In this document: positions 1,970 through 44,787 of the stretch, piece by piece
How positions within the stretch are numbered: position 1 is the first letter of the stretch
Layout: each line of letters opens with the position of its first letter
Sequence record: NC_073080.1
Source of the DNA: Escherichia phage EC115
Direction: 5' to 3' (one strand)
Length of the DNA stretch: 44,849 nucleotides
Program-made: the position numbers and the translations under genes
The notes under the pieces: model-generated
Database searches by the model: none
What the model saw: only the letters and a program-made list of their open reading frames with translations
Told to the model about the DNA's origin: nothing

Positions 1970-3490
1970 ATGACCGTTAACGTTGACAACCAGCACCCGC
2001 TCTATGCGCGCATCGCGCCAGAGTGGAAAATGATCCGTGACTGCGTAGCGGGGGAGCGCGCCGTGAAGGCGTGCGGCCCCTTGTACCTGCCACACCCAGC
2101 AAGCGGCGACACCTCCGACCCGAAATCGCGTGCGCGCTATAAGGCGTATAAGCAACGTGCTGTCTTCCTGAACGCCACCGCCCGCACACTGAATGCACTG
2201 TTAGGCGTCGCCTTCGCCAAACCGGTGAGTATGGACCTTTCCGGGGCAATGGCTGACCTGATCGAAGACGTAGACGGCAGCGGGATGCCCCTGGCGCAAC
2301 TCCTGCGCGGCGCTATGTCGGAAGTGCTGCAATCAGGCCGTGCCGGGTTTATGGTCGACTACGACCGCCAGGCGCATTTTGACGAACTGGGTAACGTAGT
2401 ACCGCAGACCGCCGCTGAAATGGCAGCACACCGCCCGCTTATCCGCCTGTATACGGCTGAACAGATCATTAACTGGCGGCAGACCCACGGCGTCGACACG
2501 CTGATTGTGCTGAAGGAAACGGACGAAATCAGCACCGAAGACCCGGACGACTTCGCAAACCACGAAGTAACGATCTGGACCGAGCTTCGCATGATTGCAG
2601 GTAAGGCCCACGCCCGCCGCTGGTTTTACAACGCTGACACGTCCGAGGTGCAGATGGACTTGCCGCGAGGCTTCACCCGCACCGACCTTGTACCATTGGT
2701 GGATGCCTCCGGTAATGCGCTAACTCAACTGCCATTTTGCTGGTGTGGCGCGGTGGACAACAACGCGACACCGGACGCCGCACCGCTGGCGGATATTGCG
2801 TCCATCAACATTAAGCACTACAACGCCGAAGCGGACGTCGCCGAGATTGCGCACATCGTGGGGCAACCTACCCTCATTGCGACTGGTCTTACTCAATCAT
2901 GGGCGGACAAAAACCTGAAGGGCGGGATCGCGCTCGGGGCAACCAAGGGCGTTATCCTGGGCCAGAACATGGACGCCAAACTGCTTCAGGCGGAGGAGCG
3001 CAACTTGTCGGTTGCACTGTGTGAGCGCCGTGAATTGCAAATGGCTAAACTGGGCGCGGCCCTGGTCGAGAAGGGGACCGCACCTAAGACGGCAACCGAA
3101 GCGGCCTACGATGCGCAGACTGATAACAGTATCCTGTCACTGATTGCCGGTAACGTCGAGAAGGCTTTCAACCGGGCGCTGCAAATCGTCAAGCTGTTCA
3201 CGGGCGACACCGCAGATCAACGCGTAACGCTGAATAAGTTCTACACCGAAATCACGGTTGACGCACAGCTTATGACCGCAATGATGGCGGGTGTGCAGAC
3301 CGGTACGGTCCGGCTGGCGGACTTTATCAAGTGGATGATGGCCCAGGGCGTCATTGATGACTCGCAAACCGTCGAGCAGGTGGAAGACGAACTGCGAAAT
3401 CAGAATCCATTGCCTCAAATGTCCCCTGATGCGGTAGAATCTACCGAAGAAGACCCGGACAAGGTAGCGGACAATGGCGAAGACAATTAA
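1970..3490 (+). CDS. Portal protein
   Basis: 506 aa ORF directly after the large terminase; acidic C-terminus; assigned by size and position. Confidence 0.7.
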   Translation: MTVNVDNQHPLYARIAPEWKMIRDCVAGERAVKACGPLYLPHPASGDTSDPKSRARYKAYKQRAVFLNATARTLNALLGVAFAKPVSMDLSGAMADLIEDVDGSGMPLAQLLRGAMSEVLQSGRAGFMVDYDRQAHFDELGNVVPQTAAEMAAHRPLIRLYTAEQIINWRQTHGVDTLIVLKETDEISTEDPDDFANHEVTIWTELRMIAGKAHARRWFYNADTSEVQMDLPRGFTRTDLVPLVDASGNALTQLPFCWCGAVDNNATPDAAPLADIASINIKHYNAEADVAEIAHIVGQPTLIATGLTQSWADKNLKGGIALGATKGVILGQNMDAKLLQAEERNLSVALCERRELQMAKLGAALVEKGTAPKTATEAAYDAQTDNSILSLIAGNVEKAFNRALQIVKLFTGDTADQRVTLNKFYTEITVDAQLMTAMMAGVQTGTVRLADFIKWMMAQGVIDDSQTVEQVEDELRNQNPLPQMSPDAVESTEEDPDKVADNGEDN

Positions 3491-4577
3491 TCAATATATG
3501 GCGGATCGAATGATCCGCCGACACATCTTCACCCAGCGCCTGAGTAATGACCAGGCGCGAAGGGTGTTGGCTATGTGGGAGAAGTTCCGGCCCACGTTAC
3601 TGGGTAAGCTAACCGAGTTACTTGATGGTAAAAAGTCCATGAATAACAAGGCACTTACCACTTTGTTAACGCAACTCGACAAGACCGTTAAAACAGAACT
3701 GCGCACCGAGTTTAAGGCGTTGGCTGAAAGCCTTCAGGAGTTTGCCGACACCGAGGCCGATTATCTCGCCGACACATTGACGGCAGCGATCCAGCCGGTG
3801 GTCGCCGTACCGGCGGTCGAGGTGGTCGGCGTAGTGACCGGTGCGCAGATCGCAGCGACGGCAATGAAAAACCCGTTCCTGGGTAATACGATGATGCAGT
3901 GGCCTGACTCCCTTTCTGAGTGGACCAGGACGCAGATCGGGAATCAGGTGCGCGCTGGATTCATCCAGGGCAAGCCAACTATGGAAATTATTGCGGACGT
4001 GAGGCGCGCGCTCGGCGGTCGTAGTGCGCAAGCTATCTCGAGCGTTGTTAAATCCGCAGTAAACCACTATGCGGCGACTGCCCGCGAACTAATGGTAAAA
4101 GCAAATGACGATATTCTCGAAGGTCGCCTATGGTTATCTACATTGGACACACATACTTCTCCCATGTGCCAGCTACGCGATCGCCTGTTTTATCCGGTTG
4201 ATGTTACTCCCGACACCAAAGGAAAGCGCGGCGGGAAAGTGGTGGCGGGGTCACAGTATGGCGATGGCCCAGGAAAGCTGCATTATTGCTGCCGATCGAC
4301 GGAGACGTGGAAAGTCAAAGGCATGGAAGATTGGCCCAGTGGTAAGCGTCCGGCACTGAAGGCCGACGCGGGTCGATTACTGAGTGAGCAGGTAGACGCG
4401 CAGACTGATTTCTTCTCATGGGTGCAGCGCCAGCCGCGCCATATCCTGGAAGAATTATACGGAGTGCAACGCGCCGACCAGATTATGCGCGGCGTGAAAG
4501 TGCCGAAGATGTTTACCGATTCTGGCGAACTGATGACTATCGCACAGCTTAAAAACCGGGGGTTATGGCGTGATTAA
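3474..4577 (+). CDS. Head morphogenesis protein (Mu F / SPP1 gp7-like)
   Basis: 367 aa after portal with overlapping start; Cys/His-containing C-terminal region typical of Mu-F-like minor head proteins. Confidence 0.65.
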   Translation: MAKTINQYMADRMIRRHIFTQRLSNDQARRVLAMWEKFRPTLLGKLTELLDGKKSMNNKALTTLLTQLDKTVKTELRTEFKALAESLQEFADTEADYLADTLTAAIQPVVAVPAVEVVGVVTGAQIAATAMKNPFLGNTMMQWPDSLSEWTRTQIGNQVRAGFIQGKPTMEIIADVRRALGGRSAQAISSVVKSAVNHYAATARELMVKANDDILEGRLWLSTLDTHTSPMCQLRDRLFYPVDVTPDTKGKRGGKVVAGSQYGDGPGKLHYCCRSTETWKVKGMEDWPSGKRPALKADAGRLLSEQVDAQTDFFSWVQRQPRHILEELYGVQRADQIMRGVKVPKMFTDSGELMTIAQLKNRGLWRD

Positions 4578-4899
4578 ATATGCAGCGATTGGACTGGTTA
4601 TCGGTCTGGCGGTAGGATTCTGGCTAGGTGACTCCTATCGCGCTGGCGTAGTGGCGGAGGCGGCGCAAGAAGCGCAAGCCAAAGCCCAACGGCAGCAAAC
4701 TAAAGTTGTGGAGCGCTCCGTGCAGGCCGAACAGGCCCGCGACGTGGAATACCGGACTATCACGAAAGAGGTTGTTAAATATGTTACGCGCCCTAACCGC
4801 CCTGATTGTAGTTTTGATGCTGAGCGCGTGCGGATCAAGCAACGCGCCGTTGATGCCGCTAACGGAGTCGGCACTGCGACCGCCGTGCAAGTTCGATAG
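4570..4899 (+). CDS. i-spanin-like protein (Rz-like)
   Basis: 109 aa; N-terminal transmembrane segment (IGLVIGLAVGFWLG) followed by a charged Ala/Gln-rich helical region. Confidence 0.55.
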   Translation: MIKYAAIGLVIGLAVGFWLGDSYRAGVVAEAAQEAQAKAQRQQTKVVERSVQAEQARDVEYRTITKEVVKYVTRPNRPDCSFDAERVRIKQRAVDAANGVGTATAVQVR

Positions 4900-5011
4900 C
4901 CCGTCCGCAGACCCCGACGAGGATTTGATGATTGACGTGAAAAATATGGAATGCGGGGCGAAGCTAAGGGCGCAGGTGCTGGAGTTGCAGCAAATAATTA
5001 AGGGGCCGTAA
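4781..5011 (+). CDS. o-spanin-like lipoprotein (Rz1-like)
   Basis: Internal ATG with AAAGAGG RBS; MLRALTALIVVLMLSACGSS signal peptide with lipobox LSAC; Pro-rich mature part; out of frame and overlapping the 3' end of the i-spanin ORF. Confidence 0.6.
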   Translation: MLRALTALIVVLMLSACGSSNAPLMPLTESALRPPCKFDSPSADPDEDLMIDVKNMECGAKLRAQVLELQQIIKGP

Positions 5012-5023
5012 TGGCCCCTTTTT
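5001..5023. terminator. Bidirectional intrinsic terminator
   Basis: AGGGGCC-gtaat-GGCCCCT hairpin followed by a T-run, flanked by an A-run; sits between converging genes ending at 5011 (+) and 5026 (-). Confidence 0.6.
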
Positions 5024-5025
5024 CG

Positions 5026-5790
5026 TTAGCGCGGAATACCGCAAATCTCGTTGAGAGTTTTCACATCCAGCGCCACCGCCGTGGATTTTGGCTTATCCGG
5101 GTAAGGGATGAATTGCTCAACTTCAGGCCATGCCTTAATCAGCTTCTTATCGGTATTGTGCATGTCCAGCACACCGGTAACGGTAAACTTGAATGCGTCA
5201 TACTTAGCACGCAACTCACGGCGGGCCTTGTCGTTACGGTCAAGGCGCTTGCAGAAGTCATGATCTGCCGGGAAATCCGCACGGCAGCGTGGCTTATAGA
5301 TCGGCAGCGATTTTCCGTCCTCGTCCACTTCACACACTGAAGCCAACATAACTGTCTCGAACCCCGGAACGATATCTCCGAGATCAGGCGAGAGCGTATT
5401 CATATATTTCTCTTCCCAGTATCCGCGATGTACGCGGTATTGGCGACCGTCACCGCTCAAGGACAAGATGCGAACATTGCCGCCTGCGTTGATTTCAAAG
5501 GTGGCGTCGTAAACGCTGCCGATACCCTTCGGGCGATCTGTGTCATAGCGATATGTTGCCTTGTTGGTGTATACGCTGACGTTGTACATCTGCGACTGGT
5601 CGTCGCGGATTGCCTTGATATGCTCGCGGAGCGCTGCGAACGTGCGAATGCCTTCCGGCATACAGTCCAGCGTGATTGCGTACGCCAGGTCGCGAGAGTC
5701 CATCATGATTGTTTTGGCTTCGGTAGCGATTTCGTGGTCGCGCAGGATGTTAGCCAGGATCTGATTTTTAATGTCTTTCGTCAGTCTCAT
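5026..5790 (-). CDS. Hypothetical protein (reverse-strand moron in head module)
   Basis: 254 aa ORF on the strand opposite to the structural genes, bounded by the terminator at 5001-5023; no recognisable motif. Confidence 0.6.
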   Translation of the reverse strand: MRLTKDIKNQILANILRDHEIATEAKTIMMDSRDLAYAITLDCMPEGIRTFAALREHIKAIRDDQSQMYNVSVYTNKATYRYDTDRPKGIGSVYDATFEINAGGNVRILSLSGDGRQYRVHRGYWEEKYMNTLSPDLGDIVPGFETVMLASVCEVDEDGKSLPIYKPRCRADFPADHDFCKRLDRNDKARRELRAKYDAFKFTVTGVLDMHNTDKKLIKAWPEVEQFIPYPDKPKSTAVALDVKTLNEICGIPR

Positions 5791-5829: not shown

Positions 5830-6144
5830 TTAGTTGAATTTGATGTTGCCACCGGTGGAAGTTAAGCGGGCACATACAGCTTCAACGGCATCGACGCACA
5901 TGAAATCGTTAAAGGCTTCGACCAGGGCGTTTATGAAAGATGCCGGAACCAGGCCGCAAGCCGGATTATCGAATATCGCGGAGTTGATCGCCGCTTTTGC
6001 CGCTTCAGAAGCATTCATGCTCTGGCACAGATTCAGCGCTTCCGCGTTACGCATTGCGTGAAAGGTAAAGGTATTAGCTACGGTAGCTTTATTGAAACGG
6101 GCCATTGCGGCGTCTACTGGAGTTGCTACGGTCATGTTAGTCAT
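5830..6144 (-). CDS. Hypothetical protein
   Basis: Minus-strand ORF upstream of 5026..5790; start chosen at the ATG (MTNMTV) preceded by GAAGGAAG RBS; track ORF extends to 6204. Confidence 0.5.
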   Translation of the reverse strand: MTNMTVATPVDAAMARFNKATVANTFTFHAMRNAEALNLCQSMNASEAAKAAINSAIFDNPACGLVPASFINALVEAFNDFMCVDAVEAVCARLTSTGGNIKFN

Positions 6145-6179
6145 TTTGTCTTCCTTCATATCTCTGTTGGTGTGCAACC

Positions 6180-6209
6180 AATATACTGCAACCAACATTC
6201 GCAATGCAA
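6180..6209 (-). promoter_or_regulatory. Sigma70-like promoter for the reverse-strand cassette
   Basis: On the minus strand TTGCAT-N18-TATATT; contains two TTGGTTGCA 9-mers; the 21-mer TATATTGGTTGCACACCAACA is identical to the one at 40282-40302. Confidence 0.45.
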
Positions 6210-21988: not shown

Positions 21989-22012
21989 AAAGCCCCGAAA
22001 GGGGCTTATTTG
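21989..22012. terminator. Bidirectional terminator
   Basis: AGCCCC-gaaa-GGGGCT hairpin followed by TATTTG, between converging genes. Confidence 0.55.
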
Positions 22013-22224
22013 CAGGTGGTGCTTTTGAAGTGGTCGACCGACACATACTGGAAGTTGAACGGATACCCCGCCTTGAGCATTTTGTGCCCGCTAAAGTCGG
22101 CGACACCGAACACTGGTACAGAATACTCCATACCGCTATTCATATATGTCGCGTCGCAGATTTTAGACGGCATACCGGCACAACCGGACAGAAGAACCGC
22201 ACAAATCATAATTAAAGTTTTCAT
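22006..22224 (-). CDS. Small lipoprotein, Cor-like superinfection-exclusion candidate
   Basis: 72 aa from ATG 22224 (AGGAGA RBS); MKTLIMICAVLLSGC signal peptide with lipobox; reverse-oriented between tail-tip and tail-fibre genes. Confidence 0.6.
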   Translation of the reverse strand: MKTLIMICAVLLSGCAGMPSKICDATYMNSGMEYSVPVFGVADFSGHKMLKAGYPFNFQYVSVDHFKSTTCK

Positions 22225-42130: not shown

Positions 42131-42165
42131 AGTCCCAGTGAGATAAAACTTACTGGGACTTTTTT
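42131..42165 (+). terminator. Hairpin plus T-run immediately before the holin start codon
   Basis: AGTCCCAGT-12 nt loop-ACTGGGACT followed by five T, then ATG at 42166. Confidence 0.45.
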
Positions 42166-42456
42166 ATGGATAAGCTAAACGAGTGGTTATTCGCCCTTGC
42201 GTGTCTTGCTGGTGGCTTCGTAGGCGCACGCATTCATGGCGAGGCAACGAAAGGGCCGTTGAACTTCGTTTTATATGTCGTAGTTGGCTTCCTGTGTGCC
42301 ATATTTGGTGCGCCAGCTATTGCCGAGTGGTCTGGTTTGTCCGGTGAGCGCACTGTTGCCGGTTTGGGCTTCGTAACTGCCATCTTCTGGATGCCAATAG
42401 CTGACCGGATCCGGGAGACAATTGCGTCGCTACACCTTCCGGGGGGCGCAAAATGA
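42166..42456 (+). CDS. Holin (putative, three transmembrane segments)
   Basis: 96 aa with three hydrophobic segments and a charged C-terminus; upstream of the endolysin. Confidence 0.55.
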   Translation: MDKLNEWLFALACLAGGFVGARIHGEATKGPLNFVLYVVVGFLCAIFGAPAIAEWSGLSGERTVAGLGFVTAIFWMPIADRIRETIASLHLPGGAK

Positions 42457-42698
42457 TTATCACCGTCCTGTTGTTTGTTATCATAGGGGCTTCGTCCCTG
42501 TTTAACGTGTATGCGCCGTCCGTTCAGGATGGCTTCTTCGGTCGGGTGTTATATCTGCTAACAGCAATGACCTGTATTGTCGGGCTGTTGCAAACGGGAG
42601 ACGTCTCTGATGCCACCTGGACCGCGTTAATCTGGCTGTTTGCATTGCGCACCCTGCGTAATGCTGTTTTGAATGGGGTAAAACATGCGATTCAGTGA
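42453..42698 (+). CDS. Second holin-like membrane protein
   Basis: 81 aa with three hydrophobic segments; ATGA overlap with the holin, overlaps the endolysin start. Confidence 0.5.
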   Translation: MIITVLLFVIIGASSLFNVYAPSVQDGFFGRVLYLLTAMTCIVGLLQTGDVSDATWTALIWLFALRTLRNAVLNGVKHAIQ

Positions 42699-43176
42699 TA
42701 ACGGTCTACGATTTACGGCAGCATGGGAGGCTTTCAGCCCGGTGCCGTATTTCGCGACCAAGAAAGAGCAGGCCCGCGGCCTGTACACCTGGGGTTATGG
42801 GCACACTGGCACTAATCCGCCACGAAGCATTACCCGTGCGGAAGCGCTGGAACTGCTCAAGCGCGATGTGGCGTATGCTGAGGACTGGGTGAACAAATAC
42901 GCACATCCGAGCATTAACCAGGCGCAATTCGACGCGCTGGTGGATCTGGTAATCAACGCCGGTCCAGGTCCGATCGTACCGGATGACGTCGCGAACGACT
43001 TTGATGATGCGGTGCGACTGGGCGACTGGGCGAAGGTACGAGCTACTCTGCCGCAGTTCCGCAAGCAAGGTGGCGAAGTGCTTAAGGGTCTGGTGCGCCG
43101 TGCAATCGGCAGGCAAGCGCTATTCGATGGTAAGCAGTGGGACGTTGCCGAGCGAATCGGTCGTAACGCTGCATAA
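42685..43176 (+). CDS. Endolysin (phage lysozyme-like)
   Basis: 163 aa; E...YTWGYGHTG segment resembling the catalytic region of phage lysozymes; follows the holins. Confidence 0.75.
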   Translation: MRFSDNGLRFTAAWEAFSPVPYFATKKEQARGLYTWGYGHTGTNPPRSITRAEALELLKRDVAYAEDWVNKYAHPSINQAQFDALVDLVINAGPGPIVPDDVANDFDDAVRLGDWAKVRATLPQFRKQGGEVLKGLVRRAIGRQALFDGKQWDVAERIGRNAA

Positions 43177-43192
43177 TACGAGGTGACACGAT

Positions 43193-43360
43193 ATGTTAAA
43201 AAGTATTCTTGATCATAATGCGGACGCGCTTGCTGCACTGGCTAAAACCGAAGACCCTGGCGCACGCGCTATCATCGCGGACACTATCAGCCATGCAGGC
43301 GTCTTCGATGCGAAGCTGCCAAGCCCACCACCGCAGGAGGAATCTGGTCCTGCAGCGTAA
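43193..43360 (+). CDS. Small hypothetical protein
   Basis: 55 aa with GAGG RBS, Pro-rich C-terminus; followed by a terminator. Confidence 0.4.
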   Translation: MLKSILDHNADALAALAKTEDPGARAIIADTISHAGVFDAKLPSPPPQEESGPAA

Positions 43361-43366
43361 ACAATC

Positions 43367-43394
43367 AAGCCCGGATAATTCCGGGCTTTTTATT
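43367..43394 (+). terminator. Intrinsic terminator after lysis cassette
   Basis: AAGCCCGG-ataatt-CCGGGCTT hairpin followed by TTTATT. Confidence 0.65.
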
Positions 43395-44751: not shown

Positions 44752-44787
44752 AAGCCTCCCAGCCTGCCGATTTGGTGGGCTTTTTTG
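44752..44787 (+). terminator. Intrinsic terminator after phosphatase gene
   Basis: Imperfect ~10 bp stem (AAGCCTCCCA / TGGTGGGCTT) followed by a T-run. Confidence 0.45.

What the first reader, a model, noticed from the sequence alone, without database searches (positions are those of the whole stretch)
4570..5011. Overlapped spanin pair located about 6 kb (across the genome ends) from the holin-endolysin cassette
An i-spanin-like ORF (N-terminal TM plus coiled coil) and an out-of-frame overlapping lipoprotein ORF (lipobox LSAC, Pro-rich) sit after the head-morphogenesis gene, while the holin, second holin-like protein and endolysin are at 42166-43176. The lysis functions therefore appear split between the two ends of the late region.
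Basis: partly seen in the sequence, partly recalled or inferred. Interest (0 to 1): 0.45.

Follow-up and report, generated by a model that had tools for sequence, protein, structure and literature searches.

The report
Known spanin pair in a Dhillonvirus
The two overlapping genes are the phage's outer-membrane-breaking "spanin" pair, sitting 6 kb downstream of the other lysis genes, and this family and its odd position are already catalogued for this phage group, so the finding is correct but ordinary.

Summary
ORF A (4570-4899, +, GTG, 109 aa) has an N-terminal transmembrane segment and a helical periplasmic domain. ORF B (4781-5011, +1 frame, 76 aa) has a lipoprotein signal (LSA|C, Gly at +2) and overlaps ORF A by 119 nt. 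They match PHROG "Rz-like spanin" families.

The window is a Dhillonvirus (HK578-like coliphage) genome. Kongari et al. 2018 (PMC6139136) already place HK578, JL1, EP23 and SO-1 in the "Jersey" family of overlapped two-component spanins, and curated Dhillonvirus records name this protein i-spanin.

Holin, second holin and GH24 endolysin lie at 42166-43176 as stated. The gap is 6,242 bp, but "across the genome ends" only reflects where the record was cut. The window starts at the terS ATG, one Dhillonvirus is reported as headful-packaging, and a relative's record shows the genes contiguous.

Kagunavirus, Jerseyvirus and a Klebsiella phage share the placement between the head-morphogenesis and scaffold genes. 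More distant homologous pairs sit directly after endolysins.

Verdict: already known, low interest.

Side observation: the o-spanin C-terminal helix resembles the C-terminal module of i-spanins in embedded-architecture relatives. This suggests transfer of the module by a frameshift.

The parts
4570..4899 (+). i-spanin gene (109 aa): N-terminal transmembrane anchor (aa 1-20), helical periplasmic domain, conserved core ITKEVVKY...C80.FD.ERVRIKQRA, variable C-terminal tail
   Evidence: ORF list. Hydropathy. phrog_2536 E 4.5e-37. Homologues named i-spanin in curated Dhillonvirus records. Start codon GTG, or ATG in one relative, conserved in 20 loci with a codon-position-3 excess of variation. AF2 helices 3-72 and 84-97 at low confidence.
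4781..5011 (+). o-spanin gene (76 aa precursor, 60 aa mature) in the +1 frame, overlapping the i-spanin gene by 119 nt. Lipoprotein signal with lipobox LSAC (Cys17, Gly at +2), Pro-containing linker, conserved Cys36 and Cys58, C-terminal helix 45-74
   Evidence: phrog_1267 E 7e-12 (covers the signal peptide) and phrog_5672 E 4e-26. AF2 helix 45-74; pLDDT block means for residues 41-70 are 92, 93 and 84.
5000..5020 (.). Terminator-like hairpin (AAGGGGCC-loop-GGCCCCTT followed by a T run) containing the o-spanin stop codon. It is shared with the convergent minus-strand gene ending at 5026
   Evidence: found on both strands. RNA fold -18.9 kcal/mol, z = -3.6.
3474..4577 (+). Head-morphogenesis gene whose stop codon overlaps the i-spanin start (context; likely translational coupling)
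   Evidence: phrog_241 E 6e-114. Sequence read.
42166..42456 (+). Holin (96 aa)
   Evidence: phrog_2359 E 5e-31. Hydrophobic segments.
42453..42698 (+). Second holin-family protein (81 aa)
   Evidence: phrog_2508 E 4e-27.
42685..43176 (+). Endolysin (163 aa, GH24 phage lysozyme, no N-terminal hydrophobic segment)
   Evidence: PF00959 E 6e-21. phrog_7. Hydropathy maximum 1.02.

Best explanation
The two ORFs encode the inner-membrane (i-) and outer-membrane (o-) subunits of a two-component spanin of the published 'Jersey' family, in the overlapped gene architecture.

Shown here:
- The i-spanin has one N-terminal membrane anchor and a mostly helical periplasmic domain.
- The o-spanin has a lipoprotein signal with no Asp at +2, which predicts sorting to the outer membrane.
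- Both reading frames are under purifying selection.
- Three periplasmic cysteines (one in the i-spanin, two in the o-spanin) are conserved.
- Homologous pairs in more distant phages sit directly after endolysin genes.

Inferred from what is established for lambda Rz/Rz1 and T4 PseT.3/PseT.2:
- The subunits pair in the periplasm and form disulfide-linked complexes that span the envelope through the peptidoglycan mesh.
- They are held in check until the holin releases the endolysin.
- Once the wall is degraded they disrupt the outer membrane, probably by fusing it with the inner membrane.

In this phage the genes are not in the lysis cassette. They are the last genes of the terS-terL-portal-head morphogenesis run, and the i-spanin start overlaps the stop codon of the preceding gene. 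I infer that they are made with the head proteins throughout late infection. That timing suits a protein that must accumulate before the holin fires.
For: - PHROG matches to spanin families.
- The i-spanin is 99% identical to that of JL1 and 95% to that of EP23. Both are listed in the Jersey i- and o-spanin families of Kongari et al. 2018, which describe this shorter subfamily and the two constant o-spanin cysteines (PMC6139136).
- Database names 'i-spanin' for homologues in the phages PaulFeyerabend, GeorgBuechner and Oekolampad.
- Topology signals.
- This is the only lipoprotein-signal ORF in the window apart from Cor.
- Conservation and codon-position pattern in 20 loci.
- Lipobox, both o-spanin cysteines and the i-spanin cysteine are kept in relatives of 34-40% identity.
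- Homologous pairs lie directly after holin-holin-GH19 endolysin (L024/L025) and after Hydrolase_2, GH24 and Peptidase_M15_4 endolysins (L026-L028).
- No second spanin-like sequence anywhere in the window.
Against: - No experiment. Function rests on topology, homology and the gene neighbourhood of relatives.
- No hit to the Pfam Rz (PF03245) or Rz1 (PF06085) models, to any NCBIfam model above cut-off, or to any solved structure.
- The i-spanin model is of low confidence.
- In this phage the pair is not next to the other lysis genes, which removes the usual positional support.
- No dedicated TM or lipoprotein predictor (TMHMM, LipoP, SignalP) was available. My tests are hydropathy and pattern rules.
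Confidence: 0.9

Rival explanations
1. The pair is a membrane protein plus lipoprotein with a role other than lysis, suggested by its place in the head-gene module. Candidates are superinfection exclusion or membrane-associated head assembly.
For: The pair lies between the head-morphogenesis and scaffold genes here and in Kagunavirus, Jerseyvirus and a Klebsiella phage. Phage lipoproteins such as Cor do serve exclusion, and one is present in this window.
Against: Homologues of both subunits sit directly downstream of four different endolysin types in other phages. The window has no other spanin candidate. The exclusion lipoprotein role is already filled by Cor. The overlapped +1 architecture and the cysteine pattern are those of spanins (PMC6139136).
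Confidence: 0.05
2. Outer-membrane disruption in this phage is done by something next to the endolysin, for example the 55-aa product of 43193-43360 acting like a disruptin or unimolecular spanin. The 4570-5011 pair would then be redundant or vestigial.
For: A small conserved ORF (phrog_11068, unknown function) occupies the position right after the endolysin. In L028 that position, between the endolysin and an exonuclease gene, holds the spanin pair.
Against: The 55-aa protein has no hydrophobic segment, no lipobox and is acidic rather than cationic. The spanin pair shows clear purifying selection in both frames across 20 genomes.
Confidence: 0.03
3. ORF B, or both ORFs, are chance open frames.
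For: Many GenBank relatives do not annotate ORF B, or annotate only a 52-aa fragment from ATG 4853 without a signal peptide.
Against: Expectation for such a lipoprotein-signal ORF is 0.03 per shuffled window. The start, lipobox and stop are invariant in 20 loci, and conservative changes keep the signal peptide in relatives of 34-40% identity. The codon-position-3 excess continues in the o-frame beyond the i-spanin stop.
Confidence: 0.01

Closest known systems
'Jersey' family of overlapped two-component spanins (Kongari et al. 2018, PMC6139136): Jersey, SETP3, wksl3, K1G/K1H, and the shorter subfamily EP23, HK578, JL1, SSL-2009a, EK99P-1, SO-1
   Same: Direct sequence membership. The i-spanin is 99% identical to JL1, 95% to EP23 and 57% over the core to K1H. 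It shares the overlapped +1 architecture, two helices in the i-spanin, the two constant o-spanin cysteines, the variable i-spanin tail, and the position between the head-morphogenesis and scaffold genes.
   Different: Nothing of substance. This is another isolate of the shorter (Dhillonvirus) subfamily. The overlap is 119 nt here, against 155 nt reported for Jersey.
Phage P2 LysB/LysC (prototype of the overlapped architecture)
   Same: The o-spanin gene starts inside the i-spanin gene in the +1 frame and extends beyond it. Same predicted topology. (From PMC6139136 and general knowledge.)
   Different: No detectable sequence similarity. The P2 genes lie in the lysis cassette (Figure 1b legend of PMC6139136, seen, and general knowledge).
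Lambda Rz/Rz1 (PF03245/PF06085), the experimentally characterised spanin
   Same: Predicted topology, periplasmic cysteines and presumed mechanism.
   Different: No Pfam match. Lambda is embedded, this pair is overlapped. Rz1 is 40 aa, 25% Pro and lacks helices, whereas this o-spanin is 60 aa with a confident 30-residue C-terminal helix. Lambda's genes follow the endolysin gene.
T4 PseT.3/PseT.2
   Same: The spanin genes are not clustered with holin and endolysin. The o-spanin has a predicted C-terminal helix and two periplasmic cysteines (PMC6139136).
   Different: The T4 genes are in the separated architecture and unrelated in sequence. The T4 i-spanin has no periplasmic cysteine.

Membership tests
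Two-component spanin (functional class as defined by Kongari et al. 2018) | i-spanin: a single N-terminal transmembrane domain with the rest in the periplasm, largely helical | tested here: met
   Kyte-Doolittle 19-residue mean of 1.9 over aa 1-20 and no other hydrophobic segment. AF2 helices 3-72 and 84-97, low confidence. No dedicated TM predictor was available.
Two-component spanin (functional class as defined by Kongari et al. 2018) | o-spanin: outer-membrane lipoprotein signal (lipobox Cys, no Asp at +2) | tested here: met
   MLRALTALIVVLMLSA|CGSS, with Cys17 and Gly at +2. Conserved in all relatives examined. Only two such ORFs in the window against 0.03 expected.
Two-component spanin (functional class as defined by Kongari et al. 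2018) | o-spanin gene embedded in, overlapping or adjacent to the i-spanin gene | tested here: met
   +1 frame, 119-nt overlap, extends 112 nt beyond the i-spanin stop, so 'overlapped'.
Two-component spanin (functional class as defined by Kongari et al. 2018) | Periplasmic cysteine(s) for intermolecular disulfides | tested here: met
   i-spanin C80, o-spanin C36 and C58, conserved down to relatives of 34-40% identity. Disulfide formation itself was not tested.
Two-component spanin (functional class as defined by Kongari et al. 2018) | Located in or next to the lysis cassette (usual, not obligatory; T4 is an exception) | tested here: not met
   6,242 bp and seven ORFs (orf55, exonuclease, a 108-nt partial ORF at the window's 3' end (annotated as 195 nt in relative L007), terS, terL, portal, head morphogenesis) lie between the endolysin stop and the i-spanin start. 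The feature is met by homologues L024-L028.
Two-component spanin (functional class as defined by Kongari et al. 2018) | Required for outer-membrane disruption: lysis defect in Mg2+, complementation of lambda Rz-am Rz1-am | not testable with these tools
   Needs experiments.
Jersey spanin sequence family (PMC6139136) | Sequence homology of both subunits to listed members | tested here: met
   tblastn of the i-spanin gives 99.1% to JL1 and 95.3% to EP23, with the core matching K1H, K1ind2/3 and wksl3. K1H i- and o-spanins hit 4759-4869 and 4775-5005 at E 5e-10 and 6e-15. phrog_2536, phrog_1267 and phrog_5672.
Lambda Rz / Rz1 sequence families (Pfam PF03245, PF06085) | Match to the Pfam models | tested here: not met
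   No Pfam family at E <= 0.1 for either protein.
Unimolecular spanin (T1 gp11 type) | [quoted passage not shown] | tested here: not met
   ORF B has no hydrophobic segment after the signal peptide. Its C-terminal helix is amphipathic and charged.

The most novel reading that the evidence does not exclude
The C-terminal helix of this o-spanin (DEDLMIDVKNMECGAKLRAQVLELQ) may be a captured i-spanin domain. On this reading the overlapped 'Jersey' architecture arose from an embedded, Rz/Rz1-like ancestor by a single indel in the shared DNA. That indel would cut the distal module off the i-spanin, leaving the short variable tail, and fuse it to the o-spanin, moving the junction between the subunits.

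The event is clear in one metagenomic phage, L048. Its o-spanin N-terminal half matches embedded o-spanins and its C-terminal half matches i-spanin C-termini.

For the Jersey family itself the link is statistical only:
- hhalign P = 6.6e-5, with 0 of 300 column shuffles reaching the score, though the best shuffle came close (23.5 against 23.9).
- hmmsearch E = 1.4e-3.
- The link faded in a broader profile.

Kongari et al. 2018 reported no family that spans embedded and overlapped architectures.
Probability: 0.4. Interest if true: 0.45.

Novelty: already known. Interest (0 to 1): 0.15.

Why it matters
For the given finding, very little is new. It confirms that this Dhillonvirus carries the full lysis set (two holins, endolysin, spanin pair). 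It also confirms that the spanin genes of this lineage lie in the head-gene module, which anyone engineering or annotating these therapy-candidate phages should know.

A practical point concerns annotation. Many public Dhillonvirus records omit the o-spanin or call a 52-aa fragment without its signal peptide, and one PHROG profile is built from such fragments.

The side observation, if it holds, would give the first traced route between embedded and overlapped spanin gene architectures. It would also show that a functional module can move between the two subunits of one complex through a frameshift in overlapping genes.

Tried and rejected
- Pfam, NCBIfam and PDB sequence searches of both proteins gave nothing above threshold. 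The pair therefore cannot be filed with lambda Rz/Rz1 by sequence.
- A search for a degraded or second spanin copy near the endolysin, using tblastn with 14 spanin proteins from relatives, found only 4570-5011.
- The 55-aa ORF after the endolysin was considered as a disruptin or unimolecular spanin and rejected. It has no hydrophobic segment or lipobox and is acidic.
- TTG 4706 and TTG 4772 were considered as o-spanin starts and rejected. TTG 4772 is absent in several relatives while ATG 4781 is invariant, and TTG 4706 would place 25 polar residues before the signal peptide.
- The large protein database returned only six o-spanin relatives, because gene callers rarely call the full ORF. It could not be used to test the module-transfer idea.
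- tblastn of the embedded-type i-spanins against isolated phages found almost nothing.
- A wider module profile lost the link to Jersey-family o-spanins.
- The i-spanin structure model is too uncertain for fold comparison, so no fold search was run.

Full report
**What the window is.** A 2.5-kb stretch around the finding is 93-97% identical to more than 130 Escherichia phages of the genus Dhillonvirus (HK578-like siphophages). The best match is vB_EcoD_Over9000. The window starts exactly at the ATG of the small terminase gene, so it is a whole genome cut at a conventional point.

**The observation.** ORF A (4570-4899, +, GTG, 109 aa) and an out-of-frame ORF reaching 5011 are present.

ORF A has one hydrophobic segment at residues 1-20 and a single cysteine, C80. 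Its GTG overlaps the stop codon of the head-morphogenesis gene (sequence GTGATTAA). One relative has ATG at that codon.

For ORF B the conserved start is ATG 4781, with GAGG 9 nt upstream. This gives a 76-aa precursor, MLRALTALIVVLMLSA|CGSS, with lipobox LSAC, Cys17 and Gly at +2. It has two further cysteines and 7 prolines in the 60-residue mature part. ORF B is in the +1 frame, overlaps ORF A by 119 nt and runs 112 nt beyond it.

AlphaFold2 models gave:
- o-spanin: a signal-peptide helix, a disordered linker and a confident helix at 45-74.
- i-spanin: helices 3-72 and 84-97, at low confidence.

**More than chance.** A strict lipoprotein-signal scan of all six frames finds two ORFs in 44.8 kb, against 0.03 in shuffled sequence. 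The other one (22006-22224, minus strand) is a Cor superinfection-exclusion protein.

In 20 colinear Dhillonvirus loci (19 distinct sequences) both starts, the o-spanin stop and the lipobox cysteine are kept. Variation concentrates at codon position 3 in each single-frame part:

| Part | Position 3 | Position 2 |
|---|---|---|
| i-only | 44/70 | 11/70 |
| o-only | 22/37 | 5/36 |

Relatives with 34-40% identity keep the lipoprotein signal and all three periplasmic cysteines.

**Identity.**
- ORF A matches phrog_2536 'Rz-like spanin' (E 4.5e-37).
- ORF B matches phrog_1267 (E 7e-12, including the signal peptide) and phrog_5672 (E 4e-26).
- Neither matches the Pfam Rz or Rz1 models, any NCBIfam model above cut-off, or any solved structure.
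- The i-spanin is 99% identical to that of JL1 and 95% to that of EP23. Its core matches Kagunavirus and Jerseyvirus proteins.

Kongari et al. 2018 (PMC6139136) list Jersey, SETP3, wksl3, K1G/K1H, EP23, HK578, JL1, SSL-2009a, EK99P-1 and SO-1 as one 'Jersey' family of overlapped two-component spanins, for both subunits. They describe the shorter EP23-to-SO-1 subfamily, the two constant o-spanin cysteines and the variable i-spanin tail.

Homologues in Dhillonvirus records such as PaulFeyerabend, GeorgBuechner and Oekolampad are named i-spanin. A recent Dhillonvirus paper lists two holins, an endolysin and an Rz-like spanin seven ORFs further on (PMC12677095). The finding is therefore already known.

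**The rest of the lysis set and the spacing.**
- Holin 42166-42456 (phrog_2359).
- Second holin 42453-42698 (phrog_2508).
- GH24 endolysin 42685-43176 (PF00959, no N-terminal hydrophobic segment).

With the ends joined, 6,242 bp separate the endolysin stop from the i-spanin start. That stretch holds a 55-aa ORF, a metallophosphoesterase/exonuclease gene, a small hypothetical ORF that the window's 3' end cuts short, terS, terL, portal and head morphogenesis.

A relative deposited with a different start point shows this run as one contiguous block on one strand. PhageTerm indicated headful packaging for the Dhillonvirus UDS3lw (PMC13348001). 'Across the genome ends' is thus a matter of record layout.

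Terminator-like hairpins lie at 42131-42160, 43367-43388, 44761-44781 and 5000-5020 on the plus strand. The last folds at -18.9 kcal/mol, z = -3.6. These pattern matches suggest that the lysis cassette and the terS-to-o-spanin run are separate transcription units, but this is not shown.

**Is the position peculiar to this phage?** No. In Kagunavirus K1H, Jerseyvirus wksl3 and Klebsiella phage VLCpiS11a the homologous genes also lie between the head-morphogenesis gene (plus a decoration gene in the first two) and the scaffold gene.

More distant homologues from IMG/VR sit in ordinary lysis cassettes:
- L024/L025: holin (PF16931), holin (PF05449), GH19 endolysin, i/o-spanin, then terS.
- L026: after a Hydrolase_2 enzyme.
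- L027: after a GH24 lysozyme.
- L028: after a Peptidase_M15_4 enzyme.

This gives the family the gene-neighbourhood support that the window itself lacks. It also indicates that the pair moved into the head module in the common ancestry of Dhillonvirus and Guernseyvirinae. No remnant of a spanin is left near the endolysin.

**Mechanism.**

Shown:
- Topology signals, overlapped architecture and conserved cysteines.
- Purifying selection in both frames.
- Association of homologues with endolysins.

Inferred from lambda Rz/Rz1 and T4 PseT.3/PseT.2 (as summarised in PMC6139136):
- The subunits join in the periplasm and form disulfide-linked complexes spanning the envelope.
- They are restrained by peptidoglycan and disrupt the outer membrane once the holin-released endolysin has degraded the wall.

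Being the last genes of the packaging and head run, with a start overlapping the preceding stop, they are probably made throughout late infection (inference).

**Side observation.** Embedded-architecture relatives share the i-spanin core ITKEVVKY: L027, L028, L033-L035, L037, L038 and L040, all with the o-frame at +1. Their i-spanin ends in a module of the type 'DAL.VIT.NYETC..WR..LIGWQ.W'.

In L048, which is overlapped, the o-spanin is a chimera:
- Residues 1-45 match embedded o-spanins (E down to 1.7e-7).
- Residues 45-84 match i-spanin C-termini (61.5% over 26 aa to L038, E 1.5e-4; 45% over 38 aa to L034, E 5.9e-4).

One indel in the shared DNA would produce exactly this.

The C-terminal helix of Jersey-family o-spanins, including this window's, resembles the same module:
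- hmmsearch E 1.4e-3 for the L024 o-spanin, with the next non-i-spanin hits being the o-spanins of L023, L025, wksl3 and K1H.
- hhalign P = 8e-4 and 6.6e-5 over 38 columns. None of 300 column shuffles reached the score, though the best shuffle came close (23.5 against 23.9).
- A broader profile lost the signal.

Kongari et al. found no family spanning embedded and overlapped architectures. I rate this link as plausible but not established for the window's pair.

**Verdict.** The finding is already known and of low interest.

Noticed in passing
window 4853-5011, and relatives L001 4454-4612, L002/L003 2954-3112, L007 9003-9161: In the four close Dhillonvirus records examined, the o-spanin is annotated as a 52-aa protein starting at an internal ATG (window 4853), so it lacks the signal peptide and lipobox. 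Products are 'Rz-like spanin' (L001, L002), 'putative spanin protein' (L003) and 'hypothetical protein' (L007). phrog_5672 is a 47-position profile that covers only o-spanin residues 32-76, so it appears to be built from such truncated calls.
   Followed up: yes
L048 1535-1792 (o-spanin) against L027, L028, L033-L035, L037, L038, L040 (embedded pairs); window 4913-5002 (o-spanin helix): The L048 o-spanin is a chimera. Its N-terminal half is homologous to embedded +1-frame o-spanins and its C-terminal half to the C-terminal module of i-spanins. That fits a single frameshift converting an embedded pair into an overlapped pair and moving a module between subunits. The Jersey-family o-spanin helix, including the window's, resembles the same module with moderate statistical support.
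   Followed up: partly
L024/L025 1221-2957; L026 1653-2912; L027 1007-2944; L028 1640-2824: Distant homologues of this spanin pair sit in canonical lysis cassettes behind four different endolysin types (GH19, Hydrolase_2, GH24, Peptidase_M15_4). In L028 the pair lies between the endolysin and an exonuclease gene, which is the place occupied in the window by the 55-aa ORF 43193-43360.
   Followed up: partly
window 22006-22224 (-): The only other lipoprotein-signal ORF in the window (MKTLIMICAVLLSGC...) is a Cor superinfection-exclusion protein, phrog_1119 at E 5e-28.
   Followed up: yes
window 5026-5790 (-) and 5830-6204 (-): Two minus-strand genes lie between the spanin pair and the scaffold gene. 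One is an Nmad5 'nucleotide modification associated domain 5' protein (PF18757, E 1.6e-60) and the other belongs to phrog_24635 (unknown function). In Kagunavirus and Jerseyvirus the spanins are followed directly by the scaffold gene.
   Followed up: no
window 42131-42160, 43367-43388, 44761-44781 (+): Strong terminator-like hairpins bracket the holin-holin-endolysin-orf55 block and follow the exonuclease gene. The 39.5-44.8 kb stretch has 14 terminator-like sites, against 5.2 +/- 2.1 in shuffles.
   Followed up: no
window 43193-43360 against L007 2064-2465: The ORF right after the endolysin differs between close relatives: 55 aa here (phrog_11068) and 133 aa in vB_EcoS_L-h 1M. This looks like a small variable slot at the end of the lysis cassette.
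   Followed up: no
window 4870-4899 and loci L016, L019-L021: The i-spanin C-terminal tail varies in length among Dhillonviruses. The stop is 21 nt earlier in L016 and L019-L021, giving 102 aa instead of 109 and an overlap of 98 nt instead of 119. This matches the 'variable, unstructured extreme C-terminus' noted in PMC6139136.
   Followed up: partly
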